Virus record (IMG/VR): IMGVR_UViG_3300027792_000307
Span: 64,866-128,865 of that record
Direction: 5' to 3' (one strand)
Source of the DNA: a virus
Taxonomy: Duplodnaviria; Heunggongvirae; Uroviricota; Caudoviricetes
DNA: 64,000 nt
Shown here: piece after piece, positions 1 to 64,000 of the stretch
How the letters are laid out: each line of letters opens with the position of its first letter
Numbering within the stretch: position 1 is the first letter of the stretch
Notes under the pieces: model-generated
What the model saw: only the letters and a program-made list of their open reading frames with translations
Told to the model about the DNA's origin: nothing
The model's database searches: none
Position numbers and translations under genes: made by a program

Positions 1-10
1 AAGCGGAATA

Positions 11-703
11 ATGGTTAATCTAACAAAAGAAGATGAGGATAATATTAGGAGTCGTCTATATAAACTTGGTTATCTTGGTGAGGAAGTAGTATTAGATAAA
101 GATACTAACTTCATAGTTTCCGGTTTAGAGCGTTCAGGAACCTCTCTCATGATGCAAATGCTTCAGGCTGCAGGAGTTCCTATTGTGTATGATTCAATGA
201 GATCACCCGATTCTAATAATCCCAAGGGATATTATGAGTTATTTGGTGGAACAATAATTAATAAACTAATGAATAACGAAGAGAATTTATCTAAATATAA
301 AGGTAAATTTATTAAAATAACCTCTTATGGATTGAAATATCTTCCAAAAGAAAGTGTGTATCTTCCTGGAAACGGTCCAGGTAATATCGATAAGAAAAAA
401 TATAAAATCGTCTATATGCAAAGGAATCTTGATGAAATTATTGAATCGATGGAAAAAATGATGAAAGTTAATGAATCCAACAAAAAAGAAACACGGGAAC
501 TTCTTAAGAGATTAGAGGACTATATAACCGACTTTATCGAAGAAGATAATAATATATCTCCATTATACGTAAATTACAACAAGTTATTTAATGACCCCTA
601 CCCGGAGTTAGTTAGGATATGTAAATTCCTCGGAATTCCAGAAACAAAGACCAAAAAAATGATGTTTGTAATAGACCCGACGTTATATAGAGAAAGAAGG
701 TGA
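11..703 (+). CDS. Sulfotransferase family protein (PAPS-dependent)
   Basis: 5'-PSB motif FIVSGLERSGTS and 3'-PB-like KIVYMQRNLDEIIESM. The ATG overlaps a TAA at 9-11, so the start is probably real. Confidence 0.85.
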   Translation: MVNLTKEDEDNIRSRLYKLGYLGEEVVLDKDTNFIVSGLERSGTSLMMQMLQAAGVPIVYDSMRSPDSNNPKGYYELFGGTIINKLMNNEENLSKYKGKFIKITSYGLKYLPKESVYLPGNGPGNIDKKKYKIVYMQRNLDEIIESMEKMMKVNESNKKETRELLKRLEDYITDFIEEDNNISPLYVNYNKLFNDPYPELVRICKFLGIPETKTKKMMFVIDPTLYRERR

Positions 704-855
704 GTATGTTATATCTTATTAAATTCTATCAGGACAATAAACTTATGAAGGAATTACAGATGGAAAATGATAGAATGGAAACGGCTGTCCAAGAAGCTAT
801 AGAGAGCCAGAAGGGATATATATATTGGAATAGGATTAAAGTGGAGACAGTATAA
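700..855 (+). CDS. Small hypothetical protein, 51 aa (not in ORF track)
   Basis: GTG overlaps the upstream TGA and its TAA overlaps the next ATG. Translates MSMLYLIKFYQDNKLMKELQ...RIKVETV and fills the gap exactly. Confidence 0.65.
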   Translation: MSMLYLIKFYQDNKLMKELQMENDRMETAVQEAIESQKGYIYWNRIKVETV

Positions 856-1562
856 TGGTGGACGCAATAATTTTATGTGCTGGGATTGGTAAGCGTCTTA
901 AACCTTATACAGAAGATAAACCAAAGGCAATGGTTGAAATAAAGGGTAAACCAATAATCTCCTGGTTATATGATAGTTTAAGTAAAGTTCCGGGTATAGA
1001 TTACATATATATAGTAAGTGGATATAGATTTAATGTTTTGGAACCTTATGTAAAGACATATCTCGACCAGAATATTAGATTTAAACGCCAATCTCCTGTA
1101 AATGGAACTGCCAACGCTATAGCTCTATTAGAGAATATGATATCGAAGGAGTTTATTGTTTTATCTGGGGATACTATATATAAACCAGAGGATATTAAGA
1201 AGTTAGTTAATCAGAATAATTCCCTTTTATACACAGAAATGAGCAAGCGATTATTTGAATTCGGTACATTGGATTTAGGATTTCCTTCCAAAGAAGGGGA
1301 TGGATTTGATATCACTTATATAAATGAGAAGAGTTCTAGACCAACTTCTAATCTTGTAAATTGCGGGGCATATCATTTTGACCACAGAATATTCAAATAT
1401 ATAAAAGAAACGCAAGAAGATGTAAGATTTAAAGAAAAAATCATAACTAATAGCATAAATTTAATGATTGATGATGGAATTAAGTTCCGGGGTATATATA
1501 TGGATAAACTCCTGGAAGTTAGTTATCCAGAGGATATAAAAGAGGTGGAAAAGGAATTATGA
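855..1562 (+). CDS. Sugar-1-phosphate nucleotidyltransferase (NTP_transferase family; HddC/GlmU/RmlA-like)
   Basis: AIILCAGIGKRLKPYTEDKPK motif, LSGD, LVNCGAYHF. Confidence 0.9.
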   Translation: MVDAIILCAGIGKRLKPYTEDKPKAMVEIKGKPIISWLYDSLSKVPGIDYIYIVSGYRFNVLEPYVKTYLDQNIRFKRQSPVNGTANAIALLENMISKEFIVLSGDTIYKPEDIKKLVNQNNSLLYTEMSKRLFEFGTLDLGFPSKEGDGFDITYINEKSSRPTSNLVNCGAYHFDHRIFKYIKETQEDVRFKEKIITNSINLMIDDGIKFRGIYMDKLLEVSYPEDIKEVEKEL

Positions 1563-1720
1563 TGGAATTACCTAAAAAAGTTTTATTTGATAAAATTATA
1601 AATGATAGTTATCTCTTTATGGCTGTTATTGACTATATGAGAAGTAGAAATATGAAAACATTTGATGAATTTTATGAAGAATCTTTAGAATTTGCTAAGA
1701 CTGGAAATCTAAGGAAATGA
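1559..1720 (+). CDS. Small hypothetical protein, 53 aa (not in ORF track)
   Basis: ATGA overlaps at both ends; MMELPKKVLFDKIINDSYLF...KTGNLRK. Confidence 0.65.
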   Translation: MMELPKKVLFDKIINDSYLFMAVIDYMRSRNMKTFDEFYEESLEFAKTGNLRK

Positions 1721-2655
1721 AGAAAATCGTAATAACTGGTGGAAATGGGTTCATAGGAAGTTCATTACTTCAATATCTATATAAGAAAGAATACGATTTA
1801 ATATACGATTTTGTTCTTATAGATAGGAAATTAAATCCCTATGGGGACAAGTATAGTAAGAATACAAAACTTTATCAATTGGATATAAATACCTGGTTGC
1901 CGGATTTAGATGATGTAGAGATTGTAATCCACCTGGCAGCTCTTCCAAGTGTAAGAGAAAGCGACAAGAGATTTAAGTCTGTTATGGATGATAATATCTA
2001 CGCATCCCATAATATAATCAAAAAATGTATCGAGCAATGGAAACCAAAGAAATTACTATTGGCGTCTTCCTCTTCAGTTTATGATGGTAGAGTGAATAAA
2101 CCAATGAATGAGGAATCTCCTGTAAGGTTATTATCTCCTTACGCTCATACGAAGTTAGTTATGGAACAAATGATACAGATGTATCAAAATAATGGTCTAC
2201 TAAAAGATATTCAAGTTGGATTAATGAGGATTTTCACAGTCTATGGACCAAGGCAACGAGATGAATTAGCAATCCAGGCAATTATAGATTGTTATCTACA
2301 GAACAAGGAATTTACTTTATATGGAGATGGAACTCAAAGAAGGGATTTTACCTATATAACAGATACTTGTTCCGCTATAGAATGTCTTATGAATAGTTCA
2401 AGATTAAATGGAATCTATAATATTGGGACTGGGGAGAATCATTCAATCAACGAGATTATATTCTTTATAGGACAGACATTAAAGAAAAATTTAACTATAA
2501 AGAATGAGGAACCAACTATCTACGATACTATGTATACTCTTGCAAATAACAAGAAATTACGTAAGTTAACTGGATGGCGTAAAGAGATGGATTTCTATCA
2601 AGGAGTTTTAAAACAAATAGAATGGCAAAAAAAGCAACTTACATCGCAGAATTAA
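1717..2655 (+). CDS. NAD-dependent nucleotide-sugar epimerase/dehydratase (extended SDR, UDP-glucuronate 4-epimerase-like)
   Basis: ITGGNGFIG, ASSSSVY, YAHTK (YxxxK), RIFTVYGP, GDGTQRRDFTYI. Confidence 0.9.
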   Translation: MKKIVITGGNGFIGSSLLQYLYKKEYDLIYDFVLIDRKLNPYGDKYSKNTKLYQLDINTWLPDLDDVEIVIHLAALPSVRESDKRFKSVMDDNIYASHNIIKKCIEQWKPKKLLLASSSSVYDGRVNKPMNEESPVRLLSPYAHTKLVMEQMIQMYQNNGLLKDIQVGLMRIFTVYGPRQRDELAIQAIIDCYLQNKEFTLYGDGTQRRDFTYITDTCSAIECLMNSSRLNGIYNIGTGENHSINEIIFFIGQTLKKNLTIKNEEPTIYDTMYTLANNKKLRKLTGWRKEMDFYQGVLKQIEWQKKQLTSQN

Positions 2656-3164
2656 AAAAAGCAATTAATCAAATAGATTTAAAAGTTTTAGAATCTATAT
2701 CAGATTATCTAATATTTTCTGTAGATAATAATATTTTTTTATGTGGGAATGGAGGCTCTTCAAGTACATGCCAACATATAGCAAATGATTTAGTAAAGAT
2801 GTGCAACTTAAACGCAATTTGTCTAACAGATAATACTGCTACATTGACAGCTTGTGCAAACGACATTTCTTATGAGGCGATTTTTGATAGACAACTTAAA
2901 GTTATGTCAGGTAAAGGAGATATTCTTATTGTTATATCTGGGAGTGGTAAGTCAAAGAATATCTTAAGTGCCATAGACTATGCTAATAAAAATAGTATGA
3001 ATATAATTGCTATAATTGGTATGGATGGAGGAGAAGTTATTAACAAAAGAGTTGATAAGTTAATTCATATTAAAACAGATATGCAACATTTCGAGGATTG
3101 TAGTTTAGTTGTTGGTCACATTATTACTATGAATATATATGGAAACCAAAAGAAAATCATTTAA
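2622..3164 (+). CDS. gmhA: Phosphoheptose isomerase (SIS domain)
   Basis: IFLCGNGGSSSTCQHIANDL, LTACANDISYEAIFDRQL, ISGSGKSKNI. Confidence 0.88.
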   Translation: MAKKATYIAELKKAINQIDLKVLESISDYLIFSVDNNIFLCGNGGSSSTCQHIANDLVKMCNLNAICLTDNTATLTACANDISYEAIFDRQLKVMSGKGDILIVISGSGKSKNILSAIDYANKNSMNIIAIIGMDGGEVINKRVDKLIHIKTDMQHFEDCSLVVGHIITMNIYGNQKKII

Positions 3165-3336
3165 AAAAGCAATTACTTGGACAATTATAGATAATATAGC
3201 TACGATAACTGTAGCTTATACATTTACACGGCAAATAGGTTTATCATTTGGAATCGCTATAATTTCTAATACTATAGAGATTTTATTGTATTTTATACAT
3301 GAAAGGGTATGGAATGAAAAAAATGGCAACATTTGA
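3139..3336 (+). CDS. Small membrane protein, DUF2061-like
   Basis: ETKRKSFKKAITW...two hydrophobic segments...YFIHERVW pattern. Confidence 0.75.
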   Translation: METKRKSFKKAITWTIIDNIATITVAYTFTRQIGLSFGIAIISNTIEILLYFIHERVWNEKNGNI

Positions 3337-4222
3337 TATTTCGGTGGCATTTGATAAGGCAGAATATTTAAATACTCAAATAAAATTATTTGCTGATACA
3401 ATGAAAGATAATATTCCAAGAGACACCATCTTACATATTGTTACTAATAGGGATGGAAATGACCCATATTTATTATATTTATTAGAAAAGATACCTAACC
3501 ACAAACTATATATAAAGGAACCTCCAGAAGGATTAATATCAAGATGTAAATATCTAATAAATGCTCTAAAGGTGGATTGTAAAAAAGATTATCTTATAAA
3601 AACAGATTTAGATGTAATTCCGTTAAAGAATATTAATACTCTATTAGAAAAAACTCTAAATTTTGATATTTTAATACAGATGGAAAATCGCAGGGTAATC
3701 CCAGACGATAATATAGAAGCTAGGGTTTGGAGACAGGTATATAAAGCTATGAGATTAAAAGTTCCAGATATTAAGATAAGTTATATAGAAAGAGTGGAAA
3801 TAGGAAAACCCTTATTTAATACTGGGATATTTATAATAAGAACCTCACTATTAAATCATTTTAATGAAGAGTGGGCAAGACTAACAAAAATAGCTGAAGG
3901 ATGGATAGATATGAATATTCATCCAAACGAATTCGCATTTACAGCAATGGTTTTTAATTATGGTTGTAAATATGAATTAATGTCTAGATACGATGTATTT
4001 AATCCAATAGGACATTTTAGAAAAGGAGACTTTCCGAATACGGAACTTACAGAAAAGTGCCAAATACCAGAAGAAGTTAAGTTATTACATTGGCATAAAC
4101 CAAAATGGTTAAGGCATCTACATAATTATAATAAATTTAAGATTTTAAATGGATTAGATTATTTGACAGACGAATTTTGGAATACTCCGGAAGAAGTATT
4201 TAAGGAAAACTATGGATTATAA
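3299..4222 (+). CDS. GT-A fold glycosyltransferase (GT8-like); true start probably 3314 or 3323
   Basis: IKTDLD (DxD), FNTGIFII and LLHWH motifs resemble GT8. Confidence 0.65.
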   Translation: MKGYGMKKMATFDISVAFDKAEYLNTQIKLFADTMKDNIPRDTILHIVTNRDGNDPYLLYLLEKIPNHKLYIKEPPEGLISRCKYLINALKVDCKKDYLIKTDLDVIPLKNINTLLEKTLNFDILIQMENRRVIPDDNIEARVWRQVYKAMRLKVPDIKISYIERVEIGKPLFNTGIFIIRTSLLNHFNEEWARLTKIAEGWIDMNIHPNEFAFTAMVFNYGCKYELMSRYDVFNPIGHFRKGDFPNTELTEKCQIPEEVKLLHWHKPKWLRHLHNYNKFKILNGLDYLTDEFWNTPEEVFKENYGL

Positions 4223-4859
4223 ATTCCTTGAGATAGCCGAACACCATGTTGTTCACGCAATTGGACACGAACAATTATTCAATAAAGATTCTATAATATT
4301 GGATTGTGGGGCCTGCGTTGGAAACTTTACACAGCCATTATGGGATAAGTTTCATTGTAACTTTTATCTATATGAACCAGATCCAAGGAACTTTAGGCAA
4401 TTGAGATATAGATTCTCTATATATCCAGAGATACAATTGAGAAGATTTGCTGTCTCTTATATAGGTGGAAATAGAAAACTTTATACAGGTAGATTCGAAA
4501 CTGCCAGTAGTTTATCCAGTTCTCATAGAGGATTGGATGGAAATACCACCGTAGTAGAATGTATTACATTAAATGACATACTTCAAGGATTTGAAATGAT
4601 AGATTTACTAAAATTAGATGTTGAGGGAGAAGAGATTTATATAATACCTACTTTAGACCCTTTAGAAATAAGAAAGGTTAGGCAGGTAGTTATAGAATTC
4701 CACCTACAGACTGAAATAGATGAATATGACGAAGAAAAAGTTAATATATGCAGAGAATGGATGAAAAAATACGGATTTATAGAAGTTAAATACGAACCCA
4801 ACATAGGAACCAATAAGGGGCAAGAGGCAACATACTTAAATGAAATTAAATTTGGATGA
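4212..4859 (+). CDS. FkbM-family methyltransferase
   Basis: ILDCGACVGNF, YEPDP, IDLLKLDVEGEE, QVVIEFH. Confidence 0.85.
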   Translation: MDYKFLEIAEHHVVHAIGHEQLFNKDSIILDCGACVGNFTQPLWDKFHCNFYLYEPDPRNFRQLRYRFSIYPEIQLRRFAVSYIGGNRKLYTGRFETASSLSSSHRGLDGNTTVVECITLNDILQGFEMIDLLKLDVEGEEIYIIPTLDPLEIRKVRQVVIEFHLQTEIDEYDEEKVNICREWMKKYGFIEVKYEPNIGTNKGQEATYLNEIKFG

Positions 4860-5532
4860 ATATAGGTATAATATTACAAGTGAACACGGGGAGAACGGAA
4901 TTTTATTAATTTTAAGTAGAATTCTAAAAGAAAAAAACAAAATTGGTGTGGAAATCGGAGCATCTGATGGAGTAACTAGTAATAATCTTAGACCATTTAT
5001 CTTCAGAGGATGGAATATTTATTATATAGAGGGAGACCCCTCCTTTTATAAGAAACTCTTAGATAATACTAAAGAATATATAAATGTTCACACAAAATTT
5101 TCTTATATATATAAGGCGGAAGATTTAAATAATATTTTAGAAGGATTTAACATACCAATAGATTTTGATATATTTTCATTAGATATAGATAACATAGATT
5201 ATTGGATATGGAAAGGATTAAAATACAAACCAAAAGTTGTTTGTATAGAATATAATTCTGATTTACCTGAAAATACAACTGTTATGAAAAGTTGTGTATC
5301 GCAAAGAAAAGATAAATCTGGTTTTTATGGAGCACATCCTTATTCTATATCAAAACTTGCAGACAGTAAAGGTTATGATTTAGTAAATATTACGGCTAGT
5401 AATATGATATTTATAAAATCCGAAATAAATGTATTTGAAAAATTAAATCCTATAGAACAGGTATATAGAAAGAGAAATAGAATAATTACAGAAGAAGAAA
5501 AAAAATTAATAACTGGAGACCTAGAATTATGA
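4840..5532 (+). CDS. FkbM-related SAM methyltransferase
   Basis: VEIGASDG, YIEGD, FDIFSLDIDNIDYWIW, PKVVCIEYN. Confidence 0.75.
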   Translation: MKLNLDEYRYNITSEHGENGILLILSRILKEKNKIGVEIGASDGVTSNNLRPFIFRGWNIYYIEGDPSFYKKLLDNTKEYINVHTKFSYIYKAEDLNNILEGFNIPIDFDIFSLDIDNIDYWIWKGLKYKPKVVCIEYNSDLPENTTVMKSCVSQRKDKSGFYGAHPYSISKLADSKGYDLVNITASNMIFIKSEINVFEKLNPIEQVYRKRNRIITEEEKKLITGDLEL

Positions 5533-6431
5533 ATATAGGAATATTTAATACCAGAGGTATAAACCAAACAGAGCATTTTATTCCTTTGGAACTAGAAGAA
5601 TTAAAGAGATTAGGGCACACTGTAGAAATATACTGGACAAAAGGTAGACATCCAACTAAAAAGGAAGCTGAATGTATGGATTTTGCTATATTTCATTTTG
5701 TTCCAACAGCTATGTTCTTTAGTAGGATAGGAGTTCCATTCTGTGTATTACCAACAGCAAATGATATATTTCCAAATGAGGGGGAAAACTTAATTTATAT
5801 ACAAAATCACCCAAACTGTAAATTTGTAGGGTATCAATCTTTCTACCACAAAAGGAAGTATGATGAGTGGGGGATTACAAAACCAATTGCTCATATTCCA
5901 CATTGTGTTAGAACTAAATTATTTAAGAGACAGACTCCATACAATCCTTCCGGGAAAATTATAGCTGGAGGTAGATTAATCCCTAAAAAGGGATTAGATA
6001 GACTCAAAGGAGTGGAAAATTTAACCATCTTTGGAGATGGCCCACTAATAGATAAACTTGGTCAGGAATTGGGGGCATCAACTAAATTTACTGGATATAT
6101 GGGAGCACAAAGTTTAAAAGAACTCTTTGAAGAGGCGAGTATCTATCTATTCCCAGCTATAGTTATGCCAGATGGGGATTCAGAAGGTATTTCAAATACA
6201 ATTAAGGAATCTATGCTTATGGAACTACAGGTTATCTGCACACCAATAGCAGGAAACACCGAATTTGAGAATATTGCCTTTTTATCTGATTGGTCTAAAG
6301 AATCCGTAGAAAGAGCTATAAATTCTGTCTCAAAAGAACCTAATACCAAGGGAAGGGCTGAAATACTAAAAACTTTCTCACCAGAGATATGTGTAAATAA
6401 ATTATTGAAAGCGATAGATGATTATAACTAG
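5529..6431 (+). CDS. GT4 (GT-B) glycosyltransferase, WcaL-like
   Basis: GRLIPKKG, DGDSEGISNTIKESM (Ex7E). Confidence 0.85.
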   Translation: MNIGIFNTRGINQTEHFIPLELEELKRLGHTVEIYWTKGRHPTKKEAECMDFAIFHFVPTAMFFSRIGVPFCVLPTANDIFPNEGENLIYIQNHPNCKFVGYQSFYHKRKYDEWGITKPIAHIPHCVRTKLFKRQTPYNPSGKIIAGGRLIPKKGLDRLKGVENLTIFGDGPLIDKLGQELGASTKFTGYMGAQSLKELFEEASIYLFPAIVMPDGDSEGISNTIKESMLMELQVICTPIAGNTEFENIAFLSDWSKESVERAINSVSKEPNTKGRAEILKTFSPEICVNKLLKAIDDYN

Positions 6432-7371
6432 AACTCCATTTAGAATATCTTTGGCAGGAGGAATGTCAGATATTCCATCTTATTATGAAACGGATTATGG
6501 GTGTGTTGTAAGTGCAACCATAGATAAATATATTTATATAACTGTAAATAAACATTTTATGCCTTATTATAGGATAAAGTATTCAAAGACAGAAAATGTT
6601 GATAAAGTGGAAGAAATAGAACACGCATTAGTTAGAGAGTGTCTTAAATTTTTACATATAAATGATTATTTAGAAATAACTGCAATTAACGATATACCTT
6701 CAAGAACTGGACTAGGGTCTTCTAGTGCATTTACGGTTGGATTATTGCACGCACTTCATATTTATAAAGGAGATAAATTCGATAAAAAACAATTAGCTGA
6801 AGAAGCTTGCAATATAGAGATAAATATACTAAAAAATCCTATAGGTAAACAAGATCAATACGCATCAGCTTATGGGGGGATAAATTATATTAAATTTACA
6901 AAAGATTGTGTAGATGTAAGTCCATTAAATTTATCAAAAGATGTTATAAAAGATTTAAATTTATTTTATATAGGTAGAAGAGAACAAAATCCAGGAATTC
7001 ATGAAAAAATATCTATGAGTATGGAAGATAATAGAAAATATATAGATAAAATAAGGGATGTGGCGGAAACATTAAGAGAAGATATAAATAATAATATAAT
7101 ACATGATACTCTTGGGATATGGTTGAATGCTGGGTGGAATTGGAAACAAAAAGTTAATGATAATATAACATCTGAAGAAATAAAATATTTATATAAAATG
7201 ATACTAGATAGTGGAGCTGAAGGAGCAAAATTACTAGGAGAAGGTGGCAATGGATTTTTTTTGATATATTTAAAAAACTCTACGATAGAGAAATTGAATG
7301 AGTTTGTAAGTGTAAGACATGTTCCATTCAATATAGACTTCGAGGGATCTAAAGTAATTTATGAAAAATAA
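6418..7371 (+). CDS. hddA: GHMP-family D-glycero-alpha-D-manno-heptose-7-phosphate kinase
   Basis: MIITRTPFRISLAGG, PSRTGLGSSSAF, GKQDQYASAYGG, GAKLLGEGGNGF. Confidence 0.85.
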   Translation: MIITRTPFRISLAGGMSDIPSYYETDYGCVVSATIDKYIYITVNKHFMPYYRIKYSKTENVDKVEEIEHALVRECLKFLHINDYLEITAINDIPSRTGLGSSSAFTVGLLHALHIYKGDKFDKKQLAEEACNIEINILKNPIGKQDQYASAYGGINYIKFTKDCVDVSPLNLSKDVIKDLNLFYIGRREQNPGIHEKISMSMEDNRKYIDKIRDVAETLREDINNNIIHDTLGIWLNAGWNWKQKVNDNITSEEIKYLYKMILDSGAEGAKLLGEGGNGFFLIYLKNSTIEKLNEFVSVRHVPFNIDFEGSKVIYEK

Positions 7372-7813
7372 AAAACTAGAAAAAAGGGCAAATATTACAA
7401 AAATAACAGATAAATTATATCTATCTGGCTCTATTTTGGATTATAATTTATTAAATGAACTTAAAATAGAGGCAGTTATAAATTTTAGGTTAGAACAACA
7501 TGATGATATATACGAATTAACTTTTAGAGGGATATCTTATTTCTGGATTCCAATATCAGATTACGGAGCACCAAGAATGGACCAAATGGAGGCCTGCAAT
7601 AGAGTAGTAGACAAATTTAATAAGGTTTTATTACATTGTGCTGTAGGTAGGGGAAGAAGTGCAACTCTAGTAGCAGCTTATCTATTATATAATAAAGATT
7701 TTGATAATGTTGATGATTGTATTTATTTCATTACTAAAAAAAGGAAGTCTGTATCTTTAACAGAAAATCAATACAAAAAACTATGTGCGTATTATAAAAA
7801 AATGAAGATATGA
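7361..7813 (+). CDS. Dual-specificity (CX5R) phosphatase
   Basis: VLLHCAVGRGRSAT, upstream IPISD general-acid loop. Confidence 0.88.
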   Translation: MKNKKLEKRANITKITDKLYLSGSILDYNLLNELKIEAVINFRLEQHDDIYELTFRGISYFWIPISDYGAPRMDQMEACNRVVDKFNKVLLHCAVGRGRSATLVAAYLLYNKDFDNVDDCIYFITKKRKSVSLTENQYKKLCAYYKKMKI

Positions 7814-8754
7814 CAATAAAAGGAATAATATTACACGGAATGGAATCTAATCAACCAAAAACTGTTTTTACACAAATAGAATCACTTAATTTAGAATTAT
7901 CTGGAAAAACAGATTTAGTTAATTATAATAACTATACATCTGAAGAATTATATAAATATCTCAAAACATTAGATATAGATATATTAATAGCTTATTATAA
8001 CGAATATCTTGAATATATGGTTCCATTATCAGAATTAGGAATACCTATAATAATGGCTTCTGAAGATACACAAAAAAGATTCGCAGATGGATTTTATAGA
8101 AAATTAGTGGAAATTCATAAACCTGACTGTATAATGATACAAAATAAGTGTTCTATACCAGCATTTAATAAGTATTTAGGAAAAGACTTTAAATATTTAT
8201 ATTTTCCATGGGGTGCAGACACGTCATTATTTAAGGATTATGGAGAAAAAAAGATATATGATATATCTATAAGTGGTAAATTTGCATCAAATATGTTTAG
8301 GAAGGAATTAGATGGTTTATTGAGTAGTAAAACAGATATTATATATAAAAGAATAAGAAATAACAATCCAGGAGTTTTATTACCATATGATGAATTTGCT
8401 AAAGAATTAAATAGAAGTAAAATATCTTTGGGTGGTTGCCTACAAAAAAACCCTTATTATGAAGGTATATATATAGGAAATTCATTTAAGAAAAATTTCG
8501 AGGTTCCTGCATCAAAAGCCTGTTTGATAAATACAAACTGGGGGGATAAAGAACTTATGGGATTCAAGGATGGAGAAAACTTTATAGAATTTAATAATAG
8601 AAGTTCGTTTTTAAAGAAACTTGAGTATTATTTGGAAGATGAAAACGAACTTAAAAGAGTTACAGATAATGGATATAAACATGTTATGGAAAACCATTCT
8701 ATAGATAAGGTTGTATCTAGATGTATAAACGATATAAGAAGTTTATATGAATAA
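7810..8754 (+). CDS. GT-B glycosyltransferase (CgeB/Glyco_trans_1_2-like)
   Basis: FPWGAD, YDISISG, LNRSKISL, KNFEVPASKACLI, FKDGENFIEF. Confidence 0.75.
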   Translation: MTIKGIILHGMESNQPKTVFTQIESLNLELSGKTDLVNYNNYTSEELYKYLKTLDIDILIAYYNEYLEYMVPLSELGIPIIMASEDTQKRFADGFYRKLVEIHKPDCIMIQNKCSIPAFNKYLGKDFKYLYFPWGADTSLFKDYGEKKIYDISISGKFASNMFRKELDGLLSSKTDIIYKRIRNNNPGVLLPYDEFAKELNRSKISLGGCLQKNPYYEGIYIGNSFKKNFEVPASKACLINTNWGDKELMGFKDGENFIEFNNRSSFLKKLEYYLEDENELKRVTDNGYKHVMENHSIDKVVSRCINDIRSLYE

Positions 8755-9658
8755 TTACATAACAGAGATGAAAGCTAAATATTCTTTATCAGATATTAAA
8801 AAATATAATAGAAAACACGATTTAAATGTTTTAGTTGTAGGAGAAACCATAATTGATGAATATTATTTCGGCCAATCCCTAGGTAAATCAGGTAAAGCTC
8901 CAATAGTGGCCTTTGAGAACAAAACGTTAGATGTGTATGAAGGTGGTGCCAAAGCCATAAGAAATCATTTAGAAGATTTCTGTAATGTAGATATTTTAAC
9001 AGGGGATTATGACGTAATAAAACGGAGATATATAGAGAATAAACAGAAATTATTTGAAACCTATACATATATTAAAAGTGACAGACCCAAAAAGAAAATT
9101 AATATAAAAGACTATGATTTAGTTATAGTAGCAGATTTTGGTAATAAATTCATAGATACTAATTTAAAAAACAAAATAGAAGCAGAAGCTAATTATATAT
9201 GTTTAAATACACAATTAAATGCAGGAAATATGGGTTTGAATACGATAAATAAATATAGTAAATGGAATTATATATGTATAGACCAGACAGAATTGAGATT
9301 GGCAACAAGTAATCAATATAATACCGTGGAAGAAATAATAATAGAAAAATTTAATGGAATTGAAAAAAGTGGAAGACTTGTATCTATAACTGAAAATAAA
9401 AAAGGTAGTGTATTATTTGATGGAATTAATATGATAAAATCCCCATCATTAATCAAAAAATCAAAAATTGTAGATACAACAGGAGCTGGTGATTCCTACT
9501 TTTCTATAACTTCTATTTTATCATATCTCAAGGCACCAAAAGAAATTATTGGTTTTTACGGAAACATTGCAGGAGCCATAGCATGTACTTATATGGGTAA
9601 TAAATACACTATTACAATAGAAAGAATGTTAAAATATATGGAAGATTTATTAAAATGA
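8747..9658 (+). CDS. PfkB-family sugar kinase, HldE/RfaE kinase-domain-like (stand-alone)
   Basis: VLVVGETIIDEY, VIKRRY, VIVADFG, VDTTGAGDS anion hole. Confidence 0.8.
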   Translation: MNNYITEMKAKYSLSDIKKYNRKHDLNVLVVGETIIDEYYFGQSLGKSGKAPIVAFENKTLDVYEGGAKAIRNHLEDFCNVDILTGDYDVIKRRYIENKQKLFETYTYIKSDRPKKKINIKDYDLVIVADFGNKFIDTNLKNKIEAEANYICLNTQLNAGNMGLNTINKYSKWNYICIDQTELRLATSNQYNTVEEIIIEKFNGIEKSGRLVSITENKKGSVLFDGINMIKSPSLIKKSKIVDTTGAGDSYFSITSILSYLKAPKEIIGFYGNIAGAIACTYMGNKYTITIERMLKYMEDLLK

Positions 9659-11078: not shown

Positions 11079-11079
11079 T

Positions 11080-19685: not shown

Positions 19686-19687
19686 TT

Positions 19688-34797: not shown

Positions 34798-34809
34798 ATT
34801 AACCCTTAA

Positions 34810-35310: not shown

Positions 35311-35334
35311 ATTTTTTTATTCCTCATAAAGACA

Positions 35335-38115: not shown

Positions 38116-38116
38116 A

Positions 38117-45115: not shown

Positions 45116-45127
45116 TTTATTTTACTC

Positions 45128-49283: not shown

Positions 49284-49285
49284 TA

Positions 49286-55200: not shown

Positions 55201-55348
55201 GAGCCGGAATATGTCTAGGAATAGCACTAAAAAGTTCTCTATTGATATCTGAAGCTAAAGTAGCAACGGTATTCCTAATTTTACTTGCCGCAGTGGTAAT
55301 ATTGCTAAATTCTGCAAGGAAAGTTATATTTACACTATTTTCTGCCAT
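49286..55348 (-). CDS. Tail tape measure protein (TP901-type core), 2020 aa
   Basis: YDLASAG, ATATQVEL, MEYVGPTAGAMGIELEEAVASLAAL...GAAAGQRL; long helical body; C-terminal AKGGIV...IGEAGKEAIIPL. Confidence 0.92.
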   Translation of the reverse strand: MAENSVNITFLAEFSNITTAASKIRNTVATLASDINRELFSAIPRHIPAPTLTGTEKIFQGLITANKEAQGKILDTMNELRNNFGNVVPKNLMLPLTEQLRTARAEGLALQQALKSTFTADWGMPKGTTFENEFIGTQPQLALPPKQMVSESISFDKSKESAEKFDIRVKELQATLQKQVGIDEQLITTEGETVDKIRMVTVAIRDKNAAIKEGQISGGAPTPTPYTTMPGFQGGEEVVTLMQRKGQTTESFNSEVKSLMTTLSKYQTQNQDIIMEERGVENGLQKVIIAIRQKNAALRETVGVPATSNVGMESQKIDTITQALSRYYKVYQVLTPEQYKNAAFMGKATLAAQKQTAAFNKQYGTSMELSNGIVSLGKDQYALVANLKAVEAQTKRGILGFKSLGDSVRQFGAQVLHYITFSVGVQMVMQLRQGIQGLIDNFKQFQQAAVNATAVTGYMGSGFEAVSKHIMDLSKSLGKKTLYNANQVAEAFYDLASAGYDIGEMTEQNLLPILQYATATQVELKDATYSVATALTSFGLEFEDTQRVVDVFTQAINSSFLTFDRLKAGMEYVGPTAGAMGIELEEAVASLAALTDRGMEGAAAGQRLNMIFTKFLDPTKEASDALAELGLTIDDVNPEIYTFTEILYKLRNAGFGAAQSSEIFRSRTASAAMTLVDNADEVARYVSELENAKGVTAAVAELQESTLLSAFKKSENAIHTAGLEIAESMAPGLMAMADGMKDLVPTLRAIGGVLSFLVKNLKGLLQILSFLLPMWMTLKFVQIATNSATAIGIGLSKLKVALLGAEAVAQQAVNVKTSEAIVLHNALNKSILANPWALIAALAVGSIFAITAALTVFKDATEYTLKSFREFMGITSGDQFDDFTGDINRVNLALFELINTVQKTQKFKIGLPDHNITLYEWGAETGNLEKEMKSVKLTRDEYVKLYDTIAGKGAFDKRFKYDLERLKEIKPPEVDMGDTDSIMNYIKYWHELGVEFMALDPEKKKSIVLDNQQWAITSKLSPQILKYQVATENLDIALKEEKKAKEELTELNKAAKLDIEAYADAQVKVAYATEKTRKAIADEMGAIKGYLTAIRGVNESQIRVYKSSDKAITDEKGEITQKEAKNRLLSQNIGILDEVIGEMENYASIQNQIQELEREHENALTELSNTTIEYAAALNTFGSNSKEALRAYAALESATRDLSENETELAEKNSTLTISKNVINSYKEYGKAIQHVVDEGLETEHTVTEYAMLTSNETELLTFSQDLLNSRELLADATTNASLAEAEYNALLDFTANILKFTSEKLKNYFEMQEKVYEIEYKLYKLKNDQAEGEEELFDALAEEGMLTEDMIGAYTELEKAQGGVQELNFEYTKAVEKLNANQYEEYKAFMASKKGTKEYDKALRDLIGSGAENVDIIVRYKDAQDRLSNAVANFRTEVLPTIERLKETGAISEEVYRKFLDLIEIPGQIAEGEAELATATLELDDAFVTLMDNTTRMAKSLQVLPIDLEKLGEEELKNLDLYIDSTIALQTLDKNAENYTDTVKDQAEALAYLQAHGYTTTQLNSYIDTLSSIGPVYKDLIKKMGLAETIGEDEASILETLNAFYSTNAKSLSEFSDEDLILAATMIEAGKAMNQFKKDMKMEDLQKILGIENIDVYRANLTGLLSDQQTGYDLQAEQLKTTKAMTAASIAMTNAINKLSRAFLGMNENVFKSAMSLDGASIFLETFGGDANKMLDWMDDMGFDFDMSWMSSWDGDTFDEFYSDLTGTRKQQITDALNSISSESGIDVTQTWNGELWEKFKSDNILQLNDLFTAMQAYWDAHPIIIYQDIVTDEGTGGAGGKGGGGGGGGGAVPGGGSEGEPYKPGEGAAGYVKSMTNPTKATGTVTSTSGLIKRWDFKNNLNTYLMKKKVGDYLGWAKGGIVAGPQLSMIGEAGKEAIIPLQGLNKKYGKQILMQILPKYFPDMVSYKQQGGIVGGGGNDYSSNINENFNIMGPINVNAIANAGEFSEQLKFRMRASG

Positions 55349-60177: not shown

Positions 60178-60179
60178 AT

Positions 60180-61799: not shown

Positions 61800-61817
61800 A
61801 TTTACCTCTAATTAGAC

Positions 61818-61864
61818 ATATAAGTAGTAATAATAACTAAAAAATGTATTAATACTACTTATAT
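61818..61864. repeat. Inverted repeat/hairpin between two fibre genes
   Basis: ATATAAGTAGTA (61818-61829) and TACTACTTATAT (61853-61864) are perfect 12-bp reverse complements, with 5 further inner pairs after one mismatch. Confidence 0.7.
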
Positions 61865-62752
61865 TTGTGCATGCCAACGGATAACTCTACTTCCAGCTGC
61901 AGTTATAGCAACTGTAAAATTAGTTGCATTTGGGTTATATACGGCATATGCAAATGTTACTAAGCCACTAGGAGTTACATTTATTATATTTGGTATTCCA
62001 GATAAACTATGTGCTATGGCTTTTGAACCGGTAGTTATTGCTGCCCATCCATAATTAGCTGCAAGATAAGAACTTGATATCTTTGCATGGAATGAGTGAG
62101 CTTTTAATGCTTGAGCAGATGCTTTGGCAGGTTTTGCTTGTGTAGTTAATTTTTGAGCTGATGCTGTGTACCAATTATATGCCGCTGAATATTCATTTCC
62201 AGATGACATATAAGTTGCTGCTTGTTTAGCATTACTTGATATTGTTGCATATCCAATAACTTCTATGTCGTTTGCATTTACTTTAATACCTGTACCAGCC
62301 CCAACAGCTATATCTCTTGTTGCTTCTAAAGTTCCTCCGCCAGTTAAACCTACTCCTGCAGTTATAGAAACTGTTGAGTGGTCTATGTGCTCATTTGCCA
62401 CAAAATTCGTAGTTGCATCGTGGTCTACATCTGAACTCTCGTAGAATGCAATTGCTCCAGATGCTTGCCCCTTCTTTGCATTACTTGATATCGTACTGTA
62501 TCCCAAAACACTAATTGTTTGTGCTACGGAACCACTAACTTTAACTGTGGCTGTAAATGGAGTAACCCCAGTTGATGCAGCCAAAGTTTGGAATGCTGCA
62601 CTTTGAATTCCCCCACCAGCTGCCTCTGTTATCCTTCCAGATAGAGCTCCAGAAACAACGTCTAGATAATTACGATTTACTGCACCAGATTTATAGGTTG
62701 GCCATTTAACTCCTGATATTTCATATGCTATAAACGGTATGGTTGTTGTCAT
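61859..62752 (-). CDS. Modular tail-fibre-like protein, 297 aa
   Basis: EISGVKWPTYKSGAVNRNYLD, GY(S/A)TISSNAK x2, C-terminal HSLSGIP...VTPSG. Confidence 0.65.
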   Translation of the reverse strand: MTTTIPFIAYEISGVKWPTYKSGAVNRNYLDVVSGALSGRITEAAGGGIQSAAFQTLAASTGVTPFTATVKVSGSVAQTISVLGYSTISSNAKKGQASGAIAFYESSDVDHDATTNFVANEHIDHSTVSITAGVGLTGGGTLEATRDIAVGAGTGIKVNANDIEVIGYATISSNAKQAATYMSSGNEYSAAYNWYTASAQKLTTQAKPAKASAQALKAHSFHAKISSSYLAANYGWAAITTGSKAIAHSLSGIPNIINVTPSGLVTFAYAVYNPNATNFTVAITAAGSRVIRWHAQI

Positions 62753-62786
62753 TTATTTTTTTTTTTCTCCTTAAAAACATATGGTA

Positions 62787-63998
62787 TTAAGTTGAGGCAT
62801 ACCAATATACATATTTATTGTTTACAGTAGTTAGATTTACATGTATATAACTAGAATCAACCCTTGTTTTAATTCCAAAATTTACATTTCCACTTGGCGT
62901 TACACTCCAGAAGTTTGGCTTTGATGTAAGAGTGTGAGATATGGACCCGCTTCCGCCATATATTTGCTGTAATCCATATGCCCTAGATCTTGATGGAGCA
63001 AATTTTACTATAGCATTACTAGATATTATATCAACATATCTTTTATTTGCAGCTCCAGAATTGAAGTAAGGTTGTCTCAATCCCGATATAGTATCACCTA
63101 TAGCTGTAAAATTAGAAGTTAATATAGTCCCGCTACTTATTTTTGTAGAAGATATGGAGATTAAATTATATATTGACTTTGAATTCCAATCTTTATCTGC
63201 ATTTATTACTAAATCAGATAAATTAGTAACTCCTCCGGTTGCACCAGATTTCTTTGGTTTCCAAGCAGACAAACTTTCATCCCAAATAATTCCAGAGTTT
63301 AACCAAGCGTGAGAATTCCAATTATTTCTCTTAAATGCTGAACTCGCAAGATATTTTGTTAGAGCTGACGAGCTCCCAACATATTTATATTTTATATTTC
63401 CAGATATGATATCTATATATCTCTTAGATGCCGCAGCTGAAGGCCAAATTGGCAGAATTAATCCAGATATTGTATTTGCATTTAAAGATATGGAATTAGC
63501 ATATAATGTACCACCAGAAGTATGTTGGGATGATACATAATTCCACACACCTGTACTAGGTCTAAATCTAGATATTGCTTGTGTACTTCCAATATAATTA
63601 GATATACTAATAACTGCAGCCCCACCTATAACTTGTCTTGTTTGGTCTAAAGAAATTGGACCTGTTGCTGTCAAATTTCCTTTAGTTAAAGCTGGTTCAA
63701 ATTTACCTGTAGAAGTTGAAGCATAAGCTCTAGATAATTTACTGGAAGATAATGTGTACCACGAACCTAGAATAGAACCAGAAGCTTTACCATCTTTAGC
63801 ATTTGATGAGATTGTGGAATAACCAAGTAAAGATATGGATGGTGTCGAATCTACATATTTAAATTCAGAAGTTAACATTCCACCTACAGCATCTTGAGCC
63901 ATCTCGTCTGTATAACCACCAGCACCAGCTATTGAATCATCTACATATTTTTTGTTCGCTAGTTGTCTATCATCTGTCGGTGCATTAAGTTTTGTATA
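62787..63998 (-). CDS. Modular tail-fibre-like protein, 5' end truncated by window edge
   Basis: The frame stays open upstream of the track ATG (YTKLNAPTDDRQLANKKYVDDSIAGAGGYTDEMAQDAVG). Two further ISGL...AAxKRY(I/V)D motifs. Confidence 0.7.
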   Translation of the reverse strand, partial: YTKLNAPTDDRQLANKKYVDDSIAGAGGYTDEMAQDAVGGMLTSEFKYVDSTPSISLLGYSTISSNAKDGKASGSILGSWYTLSSSKLSRAYASTSTGKFEPALTKGNLTATGPISLDQTRQVIGGAAVISISNYIGSTQAISRFRPSTGVWNYVSSQHTSGGTLYANSISLNANTISGLILPIWPSAAASKRYIDIISGNIKYKYVGSSSALTKYLASSAFKRNNWNSHAWLNSGIIWDESLSAWKPKKSGATGGVTNLSDLVINADKDWNSKSIYNLISISSTKISSGTILTSNFTAIGDTISGLRQPYFNSGAANKRYVDIISSNAIVKFAPSRSRAYGLQQIYGGSGSISHTLTSKPNFWSVTPSGNVNFGIKTRVDSSYIHVNLTTVNNKYVYWYAST

Positions 63999-64000
63999 AT

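What the first reader, a model, noticed from the sequence alone, without database searches (positions are those of the whole stretch)
1..64000. Tailed virus carrying a >32 kb soluble glycan-synthesis operon next to its tail genes: candidate virion-glycosylation system
Seen: about 47 overlapping + strand genes for sugar activation, chain extension, radical chemistry, methylation, sulfation and transfer converge on a tape-measure/hub/fibre module. The only membrane protein in the cluster is the tiny DUF2061-like ORF; there is no Wzx, Wzy, ABC exporter, WaaL, AglB/PglB or polyprenyl-phosphate initiating transferase. Established: cellular surface-glycan loci need lipid-carrier or export steps, whereas chloroviruses and mimiviruses glycosylate capsid or fibril proteins with their own soluble enzymes. 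Inference: this tailed virus makes several unusual sugars and attaches them directly to virion proteins as a glycan shield or adhesin. Caveat: the cluster continues past the left edge.
Basis: partly seen in the sequence, partly recalled or inferred. Interest (0 to 1): 0.92.

Follow-up and report, generated by a model that had tools for sequence, protein, structure and literature searches.

The report
Viral soluble glycan-synthesis island beside tail genes
A 155-kb uncultured tailed virus, probably of archaea, spends about a fifth of its genome on roughly 40 membrane-free enzymes that make and join unusual sugars; every long relative I checked has such a gene block at the same spot next to the tail-fibre genes, so it probably sugar-coats a viral component, though the target is unproven.

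Summary
Window 11-31680 is a gap-free + strand block of 39 genes (42 + strand ORFs up to 32738; 33 of 41 junctions overlap). It encodes GmhA/HddA-type heptose genes, NeuB plus a CMP-transferase, a CstII/WaaZ-fold transferase, nine glycosyltransferase-like proteins, five radical-SAM enzymes, about eight methyltransferases, two thiamine-enzyme pairs and a sulfotransferase. It converges on the distal tail genes.

The contig is a genuine virus with large terminase, HK97 capsid protein, protease and a 2020-aa tape measure. Left of the window lie ribonucleotide reductase, glutaredoxin and the replication module, so the block does not run past the left edge and is not a host locus. No protein in the 155 kb has more than two hydrophobic segments. 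The "DUF2061-like membrane ORF" was not found.

New here: seven related viral contigs carry a 9-39 kb island at this junction; six share a core (nucleotidyltransferase, SDR, three transferases). No integrase or thymidylate-synthase-type hydroxymethylase was found.

Virion glycosylation is the best-fitting reading (about 0.45) but is unproven. Remodelling of host surface glycans on host lipid carriers remains a serious rival.

The scan has noted comparable soluble glycan islands in other phages.

The parts
11..703 (+). Sulfotransferase, first gene of the island
   Evidence: PF13469 2.8e-11 and PF00685 3e-08. Homologues sit at varying places in relatives, once inside a tail operon.
855..2655 (+). 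Conserved core, part 1: sugar-1-phosphate nucleotidyltransferase (855-1562) and SDR epimerase/dehydratase (1717-2655)
   Evidence: PF00483 5.7e-23; best NCBIfam matches are archaeal GlmU-N and AglF types, below cut-off. PF01370 1.7e-42. The SDR is present in all six relatives that carry the core; the nucleotidyltransferase sits beside it only in some and lies elsewhere in the island in others.
2622..3164 (+). GmhA-like sedoheptulose-7-phosphate isomerase (SIS domain)
   Evidence: PF13580 6.3e-16; NCBIfam phosphoheptose isomerase 4.5e-31, below cut-off.
3299..4222 (+). Core transferase 'GT8L': GT-A fold of the retaining type, no Pfam hit
   Evidence: AlphaFold pLDDT 93.2. Best PDB matches are XXYLT1, alpha-1,3-GalT, LgtC and UGGT at E about 2e-9, TM about 0.5. 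62 homologues of at least 36% identity, all metagenomic. Invariant D105 lies in an E/D-x-D motif.
4212..5532 (+). FkbM methyltransferase (4212-4859) and a weakly FkbM-like protein (4840-5532)
   Evidence: PF05050 1.1e-16. Pairwise E 0.001 between the two.
5529..6431 (+). Core transferase GT4a (GT-B, group 1); paralogue GT4b closes the island
   Evidence: PF13692 1.5e-09. 47-54% identical in relatives.
6418..9658 (+). HddA-like GHMP kinase, dual-specificity phosphatase, Glyco_trans_1_2 transferase, PfkB (RfaE-domain-I-like) kinase
   Evidence: HddA 2.2e-29, DSPc 8.4e-19, PF13524 1.5e-11, rfaE_dom_I 3.9e-13.
9655..10500 (+). GT9-like orphan transferase, third paralogue
   Evidence: 26% identity, E 3e-15 to 26900-27793. 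The Atlas places the family in the GT9 fold.
10494..14894 (+). Two thiamine-diphosphate enzyme pairs (E1 alpha/beta-like; transketolase N/pyr-like), each followed by an rSAM-SPASM enzyme
   Evidence: The transketolase pair is 48-59% identical in G006, G007 and G008.
14891..18589 (+). RmlD-like reductase, Zn-ribbon C-methyltransferase-type enzyme, three further SAM methyltransferases
18591..21551 (+). rSAM-SPASM 3, SDR2, GT9-like transferase a
21548..22309 (+). CMP-ulosonic-acid transferase-like protein (CstII/WaaZ/MptE-like fold)
   Evidence: AlphaFold pLDDT 97.6. Best PDB match is C. jejuni Cst-II at 1.7e-5; Maf 5mu5 scores 3.5e-3. Best Swiss-Prot model is WaaZ at TM 0.52-0.58. 7 of 48 homologues hit PF01973.
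22296..25199 (+). HIT protein, NeuB-type nonulosonate synthase (no SAF domain), CMP-sugar cytidylyltransferase, class IV aminotransferase
   Evidence: NeuB 5.6e-70; CTP_transf_3 2.3e-26; Aminotran_4 1.6e-35. NeuB_NnaB 2.6e-75 and PseF 3.1e-25, both below cut-off.
25159..27793 (+). rSAM-SPASM 4, SDR3, GT9-like transferase b
   Evidence: rSAM4 is 69% identical in G011.
27906..28892 (+). Core transferase GT2L (weak GT2 / TarP-like)
   Evidence: PF00535 0.0058. PDB 6h1j TarP 0.0036. 39-41% identical in G001, G006, G007, G008 and G011.
28867..31680 (+). FkbM methyltransferase 2, B12-binding radical SAM enzyme, GT4b (end of island)
   Evidence: GT4b is 37% identical to GT4a.
31664..32738 (+). Two small ORFs and a 174-aa protein with an HNH-like motif (read by eye)
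   Evidence: No Pfam hit.
32739..33001 (.). Convergent intergenic junction between island and tail module; no tRNA and no terminator-like hairpin found
33002..33628 (-). Last tail-module gene, member of a three-paralogue family (also 45128-45502 and 45499-45885). A member lies at or next to the island-proximal end of the tail module in most relatives. Conserved ...KIEG[YFM]xSGxxxL C-terminus.
   Evidence: No family hit.
33610..45115 (-). Distal tail / fibre proteins (395 aa DUF2341; 166 aa; 958 aa; 770 aa DUF2341 plus Laminin_G_3; 1561 aa)
   Evidence: PF10102 1.8e-19; PF13385 1.5e-09. Called fibres from position and size.
45885..49283 (-). 1132-aa protein directly after the tape measure (hub-like by position only)
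   Evidence: Homologues follow the tape measure in all relatives. No family hit.
49286..55348 (-). Tail tape measure protein, 2020 aa
   Evidence: phrog_1533 1.8e-47 and 18 further families, most of them named tape measure.

Best explanation
Window 11-31680 is a virus-owned, fully cytoplasmic glycan factory that is a fixed feature of a lineage of large tailed viruses, probably archaeal. Shown: it encodes routes to an NDP-hexose (nucleotidyltransferase plus SDR), to an activated heptose (GmhA-, HddA- and PfkB-like enzymes, with a dual-specificity phosphatase where GmhB would be), and to a CMP-nonulosonic acid (NeuB, cytidylyltransferase). It also encodes tailoring enzymes (five radical-SAM, two thiamine-enzyme pairs, about eight methyltransferases, a sulfotransferase) and nine soluble transferase-like proteins. 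Inferred: three transferases conserved in six of the seven relatives (GT8L, GT4a, GT2L) build a constant inner core on a constant acceptor. The variable genes (three GT9-like, the CstII/WaaZ-like and the Glyco_trans_1_2 enzymes) add strain-specific outer sugars such as heptose and a nonulosonic acid cap, which are then methylated and sulfated. Inferred, and least certain: the acceptor is a viral protein glycosylated in the cytoplasm without a lipid carrier before or during assembly. It is most likely a distal tail or fibre component encoded next to the island, and the result would be a variable glycan coat on the virion that acts as shield or adhesin.
For: The enzyme repertoire is established. 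Viral ownership: large terminase, capsid protein, protease and tape measure, with PolB, a Rad51-like ATPase and ribonucleotide reductase to the left. No tyrosine integrase in G000, G001, G008 or the terminally repeated G009. An island lies at the junction between the non-structural arm and the distal tail genes in G001 (19 kb), G006 (36.5 kb), G007 (39 kb), G008 (38.6 kb), G011 (9.3 kb), G009 (about 11 kb) and an NCBI metagenome contig. Ribonucleotide reductase lies just upstream in five of these. All but G009 keep the SDR, GT8L, GT4a and a nucleotidyltransferase, and GT2L was seen in all of those except the NCBI contig, whose fetched stretch ends before the island does. Identities of 39-54% match those of structural proteins. 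All 62 GT8L homologues are unnamed metagenomic proteins, many on 60-140 kb contigs, so this is an old viral family rather than a recent host copy. No membrane or export component exists in the whole contig. In G006 a homologue of the island's sulfotransferase overlaps its neighbours inside the - strand tail operon. Precedents: mycobacteriophage capsid and tail-tube glycans, as summarised in PMC12619734, and giant-virus glycan clusters that vary by clade (PMC10117803, PMC9614988).
Against: There is no direct evidence for any acceptor. Soluble transferases are also the rule for enzymes that extend lipid-linked glycans at the cytoplasmic face (Haloferax pathway described in PMC10384203), so host carrier, flippase and AglB could complete the job. 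The capsid protein ends without an extension. Virion proteins show only the ordinary Ser/Thr enrichment of beta-rich tail proteins and no dense tract. The nearest solved relatives of the two modelled transferases (LgtC, XXYLT1, Cst-II, WaaZ) act on glycans, not on protein. The island is co-oriented with the replication genes, not with the structural operon. The G006 tail-operon protein has no Pfam hit of its own.
Confidence: 0.45

Rival explanations
1. Host-surface remodelling. The viral enzymes feed new nucleotide sugars and soluble transferases into the host's own lipid-carrier glycosylation pathway. The host supplies the initiating transferase, the flippase and AglB. The result is altered S-layer or appendage glycans that block superinfection, stop progeny sticking to debris, or change cell properties.
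For: Cytoplasmic-face transferases of lipid-linked pathways need no membrane span, so the all-soluble repertoire fits (PMC10384203). The nucleotidyltransferase resembles archaeal AglF/GlmU types most closely. This is the explanation proposed for the 24 'LPS' genes of cyanophage P-SSM2 and the 22 cell-wall genes of S-SCSM2R (PMC1079782, PMC12801897). The nearest solved folds act on glycan or lipo-oligosaccharide acceptors.
Against: No integrase was found, so there is no lysogenic state in which conversion would pay. The conserved core transferase family has no recognisable cellular members among 5.8 billion proteins, which is unexpected for enzymes that must dock onto host intermediates. The fixed position abutting tail-fibre genes and the sulfotransferase homologue inside a tail operon are not explained. 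Spending 9-39 kb on this is costly for a lytic virus.
Confidence: 0.3
2. Free glycoconjugate or oligosaccharide metabolite. The island would be a biosynthetic gene cluster for a heavily tailored oligosaccharide, aminoglycoside-like or orthosomycin-like compound, or for glycosylating a host cytoplasmic target, rather than a structural coat.
For: The mix of E1-like thiamine enzymes, rSAM-SPASM and B12-rSAM enzymes, C- and O-methyltransferases, an aminotransferase, kinases and a phosphatase recalls sugar-antibiotic clusters (my own knowledge of avilamycin and aminoglycoside pathways, not tested here). NCBIfam lists AprD4-type and C-methyltransferase-type families among weak matches. No acceptor is identified.
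Against: Nine transferase-like proteins with NeuB, a CMP-transferase and heptose genes are typical of surface glycans. No scaffold-forming enzyme (cyclitol synthase, polyketide or non-ribosomal synthase) and no exporter or resistance gene was seen. The conserved-core, variable-periphery pattern resembles glycan loci.
Confidence: 0.08
3. DNA hypermodification. The sugars would be attached to modified bases of the viral genome to evade restriction.
For: Viral transferases can decorate DNA with varied glycans (Pyle et al. 2024, cited in PMC12619734). A further well-conserved GT4 gene sits in the replication module.
Against: No thymidylate-synthase-family hydroxymethylase in G000, G001, G006 or G007, while the control genomes matched. 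Thirty kilobases of heptose, nonulosonate and sulfation chemistry far exceeds known DNA glycans. The contigs are incomplete (60-87%), so absence is not absolute.
Confidence: 0.04
4. Host chromosomal glycan locus next to an integrated provirus, or a chimeric assembly.
For: Island G+C is lower (28.4%) than the rest of the contig (33-34%).
Against: Viral genes lie on both sides. The same two-sided synteny recurs in seven contigs from several samples. There is no tRNA or integrase, and no housekeeping gene was seen.
Confidence: 0.02

Closest known systems
Mycobacteriophage virion glycosylation (Che8, Corndog, Myrna; Freeman et al. 2023, known to me through PMC12619734 and PMC12801897; the paper itself is not held)
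   Same: A tailed virus encodes its own transferases. Glycans are put on virion proteins in the cytoplasm without an export system.
   Different: Those cassettes are a few genes and the glycans sit on C-terminal ends of capsid and tail-tube subunits. Here there are about 40 genes with full sugar pathways, the capsid protein has no such end, and no glycan has been observed.
Giant-virus glycan machineries (chlorovirus capsid glycans; Megavirinae fibril glycosylation clusters; PMC9614988, PMC10117803)
   Same: Autonomous, soluble, virus-encoded synthesis of rare bacterial-like sugars. Clusters differ between related viruses. GT8L has fold-level neighbours in Mimivirus, CroV and Tetraselmis virus (TM about 0.5).
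   Different: Those are eukaryote-infecting nucleocytoviruses with an unrelated virion architecture. Here the virus has an HK97-type head and a long tail, and the island takes about 20% of the genome rather than about 1-2% (the latter figure is my own estimate).
'LPS' / cell-wall gene clusters of large marine cyanomyoviruses (P-SSM2 24 genes; S-SCSM1; S-SCSM2R 22 genes, 13 transferases; PMC1079782, PMC12801897)
   Same: Large blocks of epimerase, transferase and synthase genes in lytic tailed viruses of aquatic microbes, with the target unknown. An S-SCSM1 transferase is the second-best viral fold match of GT8L.
   Different: They belong to a different virus lineage (T4-like myoviruses of cyanobacteria), hold fewer genes, sit in two clusters rather than at a tail junction, and are usually read as host-surface modification. 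No sequence-level homology was seen here.
Single glycosyltransferase genes near tail or capsid genes of Poseidoniales viruses (magroviruses; PMC11706807)
   Same: Uncultured archaeal tailed viruses whose transferase genes lie beside tail genes. Their authors also propose tail-protein glycosylation.
   Different: Those have one or two GT4 genes. Here there is a 32-kb pathway island with nine transferases and complete sugar routes. Kinship of this virus to magroviruses was not tested by me.
Cellular O-antigen, capsule and archaeal Agl N-glycan loci
   Same: The enzyme classes match (NDP-sugar synthesis, transferases, NeuB with a CMP-transferase, heptose genes). So do the lower G+C and the constant-core, variable-outer logic.
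   Different: No initiating polyprenyl-phosphate transferase, flippase, polymerase, ligase or oligosaccharyltransferase, and the locus lies in a virus genome.

Membership tests
Virus-encoded virion glycosylation systems | The virus encodes its own glycosyltransferases and nucleotide-sugar enzymes | tested here: met
   The contig is viral.
Virus-encoded virion glycosylation systems | Glycan covalently attached to virion proteins | not testable with these tools
   Needs particles or expressed proteins.
Virus-encoded virion glycosylation systems | Recognisable acceptor element on structural proteins (C-terminal extension of capsid or tail tube, as in mycobacteriophages) | tested here: inconclusive
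   The capsid protein has no extension and no dense Ser/Thr tract was found. Two of the three paralogues of the 33002 family per genome carry a conserved short Ser/Gly C-terminal tail. This is only a candidate.
Lipid-carrier-dependent cellular surface-glycan locus (Wzx/Wzy, ABC, AglB types) | Initiating polyprenyl-phosphate transferase, flippase or ABC exporter, polymerase, ligase or oligosaccharyltransferase in the locus | tested here: not met
   No protein with more than two hydrophobic segments in the 155-kb contig and none in the island. No such Pfam family appeared.
Lipid-carrier-dependent cellular surface-glycan locus (Wzx/Wzy, ABC, AglB types) | Located in a cellular chromosome among housekeeping genes | tested here: not met
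   Both flanks are viral and syntenic in seven related viral contigs.
Lysogenic (sero)conversion modules of temperate phages | Temperate lifestyle with an integrase | tested here: not met
   PF00589 is absent from G000, G001, G008 and G009, while all 14 control genomes matched. The contigs are incomplete, except G009, which has terminal repeats.
Viral DNA glycan hypermodification | Pyrimidine hydroxymethylase (thymidylate synthase family) supplying the attachment point | tested here: not met
   PF00303 is absent from four related contigs.
CAZy GT8 / retaining GT-A transferases (for 3299-4222) | GT-A Rossmann-like fold with a DxD-type metal site | tested here: met
   pLDDT 93.2. Best PDB hits are GT8, GT6 and GT24 enzymes at about 2e-9. 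Invariant D105 follows strand 98-102.
CAZy GT8 / retaining GT-A transferases (for 3299-4222) | Sequence membership (Pfam PF01501) | tested here: not met
   No Pfam hit at E 0.01. TM is only about 0.5, so it is best treated as a separate GT-A family.
CMP-ulosonic acid transferases of the CstII (GT42) / WaaZ / Maf (MptE-like) fold (for 21548-22309) | The fold, with the N-terminal GxGPS nucleotide loop and a conserved His | tested here: met
   pLDDT 97.6. Cst-II 1.7e-5, WaaZ TM 0.52-0.58, Maf 3.5e-3. G10 and S12 are nearly invariant and H199 is conserved.
CMP-ulosonic acid transferases of the CstII (GT42) / WaaZ / Maf (MptE-like) fold (for 21548-22309) | Protein (flagellin-type) acceptor, as in Maf | tested here: inconclusive
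   The protein is the size of Cst-II and WaaZ (253 aa) and lacks the extra Maf domains. Maf is a weaker match than the glycan-acting enzymes.
NeuB-type nonulosonate synthase (for 22819-23664) | NeuB catalytic domain | tested here: met
   PF03102 5.6e-70. The NCBIfam NeuB score of 253 bits is below the 400-bit equivalog cut-off, so the product sugar is undetermined.
GDP/ADP-heptose pathway | GmhA isomerase, heptose-7-phosphate kinase, GmhB phosphatase, nucleotidyltransferase | tested here: inconclusive
   GmhA-like, HddA-like and RfaE-domain-I-like proteins and a nucleotidyltransferase are present, all below equivalog cut-offs. No HAD-type GmhB was found; a dual-specificity phosphatase sits in that place.

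The most novel reading that the evidence does not exclude
A whole lineage of large tailed viruses, probably archaeal, coats its particles, most likely the tail fibres, with a virus-made glycan that works like a phage O-antigen. A conserved inner core would be laid down by three virus-specific transferases, followed by a swappable outer part carrying heptose, a nonulosonic acid, branched or deoxy sugars, and methyl and sulfate groups. All of it would be assembled in the cytoplasm without a lipid carrier, by up to 39 kb of viral genes.
Probability: 0.4. Interest if true: 0.8.

Novelty: new variant of a known kind. Interest (0 to 1): 0.62.

Why it matters
If the glycan is on the virion, surface sugar coats that vary between strains are not limited to cells and giant viruses. 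Ordinary head-tail viruses of uncultured sediment microbes would carry them too, which bears on how such viruses find hosts, stick to particles and avoid defences. The system is also a compact, membrane-free source of enzymes for rare sugars: heptoses, nonulosonic acids, branched, C-methylated and sulfated sugars, and three transferase families without Pfam membership. The conserved five-gene core, seen almost alone in the 9.3-kb island of G011, gives a small set that can be expressed with candidate viral acceptors. That makes the long-open question of what phage "LPS genes" act on directly testable.

Tried and rejected
- **Host locus beside a provirus:** rejected.
- **Cluster continuing left of the window:** rejected. 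Ribonucleotide reductase and glutaredoxin lie there.
- **DUF2061-like membrane ORF:** not found.
- **PHROG and Pfam annotation of tail proteins 33002-49283:** yielded only DUF2341 and Laminin_G_3.
- **Sequence search of the orphan proteins against solved structures:** uninformative.
- **Acceptor hunt:** Ser/Thr and N-x-S/T density is higher in structural proteins (17.8% against about 10%; 1.07 against 0.5-0.6 sequons per 100 aa), but this is normal for beta-rich tail proteins and no tract stands out. The capsid protein has no C-terminal extension.
- **Host assignment through capsid-protein hits in genomes:** gave only three short metagenome-bin contigs labelled Saccharibacteria, Planctomycetota (Guaymas) and ANME-2. 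I take these to be mis-binned viral contigs, so the host stays unresolved.
- **Names for NCBI-sourced GT8L homologues:** none are recorded.
- **Promoter and terminator scan of the junction:** nothing above chance.
- **Freeman et al. 2023:** the paper is not held.
- **Complex prediction:** not used. I claim no specific enzyme-acceptor pair, and the tool's own guidance rates enzyme-substrate pairs as poor candidates.

Full report
**What the contig is.** The window is bases 64866-128865 of a 154,999-bp IMG/VR virus record that CheckV rates 87% complete. My ORF map of the whole record shows one + strand arm from 0 to 97.6 kb and one - strand arm from 97.8 to 151 kb.

- The - strand arm is a head-tail structural module. 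It holds a large terminase (T7-type DNA maturase 4bij, 6.4e-16), an HK97-type major capsid protein (phrog_10, 6.8e-18) and a prohead protease or scaffold. It also holds a 2020-aa tape measure at window 49286-55348 (phrog_1533, 1.8e-47).
- The + strand arm holds family B DNA polymerase, a Rad51/RadA-type ATPase and a LAGLIDADG endonuclease.
- Immediately left of the window lie a ribonucleotide reductase (PF02867, 1e-108) and a glutaredoxin.
- Earlier notes on this genome argue for an archaeal host, citing an eS17 gene and an archaeal-style replication set. I confirmed only the polymerase and the Rad51-like protein. I add that the island's nucleotidyltransferase matches archaeal GlmU-N and AglF families best. 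The host remains unresolved.

**The observation.** Between window 11 and 32738 there are 42 + strand ORFs of at least 70 aa, and 33 of 41 junctions overlap. The island proper is 39 genes over 11-31680. Pfam and NCBIfam give the following.

- Sugar activation and synthesis: a sulfotransferase; a nucleotidyltransferase plus three SDR epimerase/dehydratases and an RmlD-like reductase; GmhA-like, HddA-like and RfaE-domain-I-like heptose enzymes with a dual-specificity phosphatase among them.
- Carbon-chain chemistry: two thiamine-diphosphate enzyme pairs, each followed by an rSAM-SPASM enzyme, plus two more rSAM-SPASM enzymes and a B12-binding radical-SAM enzyme.
- Methylation: seven or eight SAM methyltransferases.
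- Nonulosonate genes: a HIT protein, NeuB (5.6e-70), a CMP-sugar cytidylyltransferase and a class IV aminotransferase.
- Transferases recognised by Pfam: GT1/GT4 twice, Glyco_trans_1_2 and a weak GT2.

Three orphan families were resolved further.

- 3299-4222 models at pLDDT 93.2 as a GT-A transferase. It is closest to retaining GT8, GT6 and GT24 enzymes (XXYLT1, LgtC, alpha-1,3-GalT, UGGT; E about 2e-9, TM about 0.5).
- 21548-22309 models at pLDDT 97.6. It is closest to the Campylobacter sialyltransferases Cst-II and Cst-I, with the Kdo transferase WaaZ as best Swiss-Prot model and the flagellin transferase Maf further down.
- 20652-21551, 26900-27793 and 9655-10500 are paralogues with a GT9-like fold according to the ESM Atlas.

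That makes nine transferase-like proteins in the island. A tenth, a GT4 resembling chlorovirus B736L, sits in the replication module.

**The negative claims.** A Kyte-Doolittle scan (19-residue window, threshold 1.6) finds no membrane-span candidate in the island apart from one marginal internal segment in the E1-like protein. No protein anywhere in the 155 kb has more than two such segments. Wzx, Wzy, AglB, WecA or PglC-type and ABC-exporter proteins are therefore absent from the held sequence. The "DUF2061-like" membrane ORF was not found. The cluster does not extend left of the window.

**Relatives.** A capsid-protein profile finds 69 related loci in IMG/VR. I mapped the long contigs against this genome. 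Every contig long enough to span the junction carries a + strand sugar island that converges on the distal end of the tail module. Ribonucleotide reductase with or without glutaredoxin lies just upstream in five of the seven.

| Contig | Capsid identity | Island size |
|---|---|---|
| G001 | 73% | 19 kb |
| G006 | not determined (capsid gene cut at the contig end) | 36.5 kb |
| G007 | 52% | 39 kb |
| G008 | 72% | 38.6 kb |
| G011 | 55% | 9.3 kb |
| G009 (terminal repeats) | 57% | about 11 kb |
| NCBI metagenome contig | not determined | same gene order; only its first part fetched |

- A core recurs at 39-54% identity in all but G009: the SDR, GT8L, GT4a and a nucleotidyltransferase. GT2L was seen in all of those except the NCBI contig, whose fetched stretch ends before the island does.
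- G009 instead has NeuB, a CMP-transferase, a GT2, an rSAM-SPASM enzyme and a class III aminotransferase.
- Heptose, transketolase-rSAM, GT9-like and NeuB/CstII-like modules come and go between contigs.
- HNH-like and LAGLIDADG-like genes lie inside or at the edge of islands. They may promote exchange.
- GT8L has 62 homologues of at least 36% identity among 5.8 billion proteins. All are unnamed metagenomic proteins, many on 60-140 kb contigs. It looks like a family private to these viruses.

**What the island acts on.**

- *DNA modification is unlikely.* No thymidylate-synthase-type hydroxymethylase occurs in four of the contigs.
- *Lysogenic conversion is unlikely.* No tyrosine integrase was found, including in the terminally repeated G009.
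- *A host locus or chimera is excluded* by the two-sided viral synteny.
- *Two live models remain.* One is direct glycosylation of a viral, probably virion, protein. The other is extension of host lipid-linked glycans, with host carrier, flippase and oligosaccharyltransferase finishing the job.

Cytoplasmic-face transferases of lipid-linked pathways are generally soluble (PMC10384203).

Several points tilt me towards the virion:
- the invariant position next to the fibre genes across viruses whose capsid proteins are only about 52-73% identical;
- the virus-private core transferases;
- the non-integrating lifestyle;
- the size of the investment;
- in G006, a homologue of the island's sulfotransferase (28% identity, 5.6e-11) overlapping its neighbours within the tail operon, although that protein has no Pfam hit of its own.

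Other points tilt against:
- the nearest solved enzymes act on glycans;
- the capsid protein lacks a mycobacteriophage-style C-terminal acceptor;
- no Ser/Thr tract stands out;
- the island is co-oriented with early genes;

One speculative acceptor is the small three-paralogue family at 33002, 45128 and 45499. A member lies at or next to the island-proximal end of the tail module in most relatives. Two of the three copies per genome end in a conserved ...KIEG[YFM]xSGxxxL tail.

**Comparison with the literature.** Large "LPS" or cell-wall gene sets are known in cyanomyoviruses (24 genes in P-SSM2; 22 genes and 13 transferases in S-SCSM2R, said there to be perhaps the most in a marine phage). 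Their target is unknown. Virion glycosylation by phage enzymes is established for mycobacteriophages (cited) and for giant viruses. Single transferase genes near tail genes have been noted in Poseidoniales viruses. I found no paper describing this lineage or an island of this size in a head-tail virus.

The scan's own earlier notes list comparable soluble glycan islands in several other uncultured phages. The phenomenon is therefore recurrent, and this is a large, probably archaeal-virus, instance of it.

**Verdict.** I put the virion target at about 0.45, host-surface remodelling at about 0.30, and other targets at about 0.15 in total. I class it as a new variant of a known kind.

Noticed in passing
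G000 genome 53460-54755 (L005:13460-14755:+), 10 kb left of the window: A 431-aa GT4 transferase sits in the replication module next to PolB. Its best solved relative is chlorovirus PBCV-1 B736L (3oy2, 6.1e-12). It is 73% identical in G008 and 57% in G009, about as conserved as the capsid protein (72% and 57%). It could be the initiating transferase or could act on something else entirely.
   Followed up: partly
window 33002-33628, 45128-45502, 45499-45885 (- strand): A family of three paralogues with a domain of about 125 aa and no known family; one search also detected the DNA-level repeat (74% identity). A member lies at or next to the island-proximal end of the tail module in most relatives, sometimes fused to larger proteins. 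Two of the three copies per genome end in a conserved Ser/Gly-rich ...KIEG[YFM]xSGxxxL tail.
   Followed up: partly
L032:15119-15730:- (G006 105119-105730): A homologue of the island's sulfotransferase (28% identity, 5.6e-11) lies inside the - strand tail operon of a relative and overlaps both neighbours. In G008 and G011 the homologue instead lies outside the island, beyond the ribonucleotide reductase (G008) or about 8 kb upstream (G011).
   Followed up: partly
window 32214-32738; G008 83736-84584; L123:12138-12539: Homing-endonuclease-type genes sit at the edge of or inside the islands: an HNH-like motif here, a LAGLIDADG-like protein in G008, and a weak HNH in the NCBI contig. They are possible drivers of module exchange.
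   Followed up: no
window 56007-64000 and beyond (- strand): Seven large structural-arm proteins (297-937 aa, one with DUF2341) lie upstream of the tape measure, between it and the tail-tube and head genes. This is an unusual place for fibre-like proteins, which may be head or neck fibres.
   Followed up: no
window 27794-27905, 31913-32014 and other short gaps: The few intergenic gaps in the island seem to hold small unannotated ORFs, one of them rich in cysteine pairs like a zinc ribbon. Starts are preceded by GGAG/AGGT-type ribosome-binding sites.
   Followed up: no
L111:9446-11551:- (G009): The smaller, terminally repeated relative has an anaerobic class III ribonucleotide reductase (NrdD, 1.6e-209) in place of the PF02867-type reductase found here, still next to its sugar island. 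This points to an anoxic habitat, as do the Guaymas and ANME-2 bin labels of related contigs.
   Followed up: no
L100 and L101 (IMGVR_UViG_3300028920_002938): A distant relative that IMG/VR labels a provirus carries two diverged capsid-protein genes 3.7 kb apart (44% and 33% identity to this one) and has no SDR gene.
   Followed up: no
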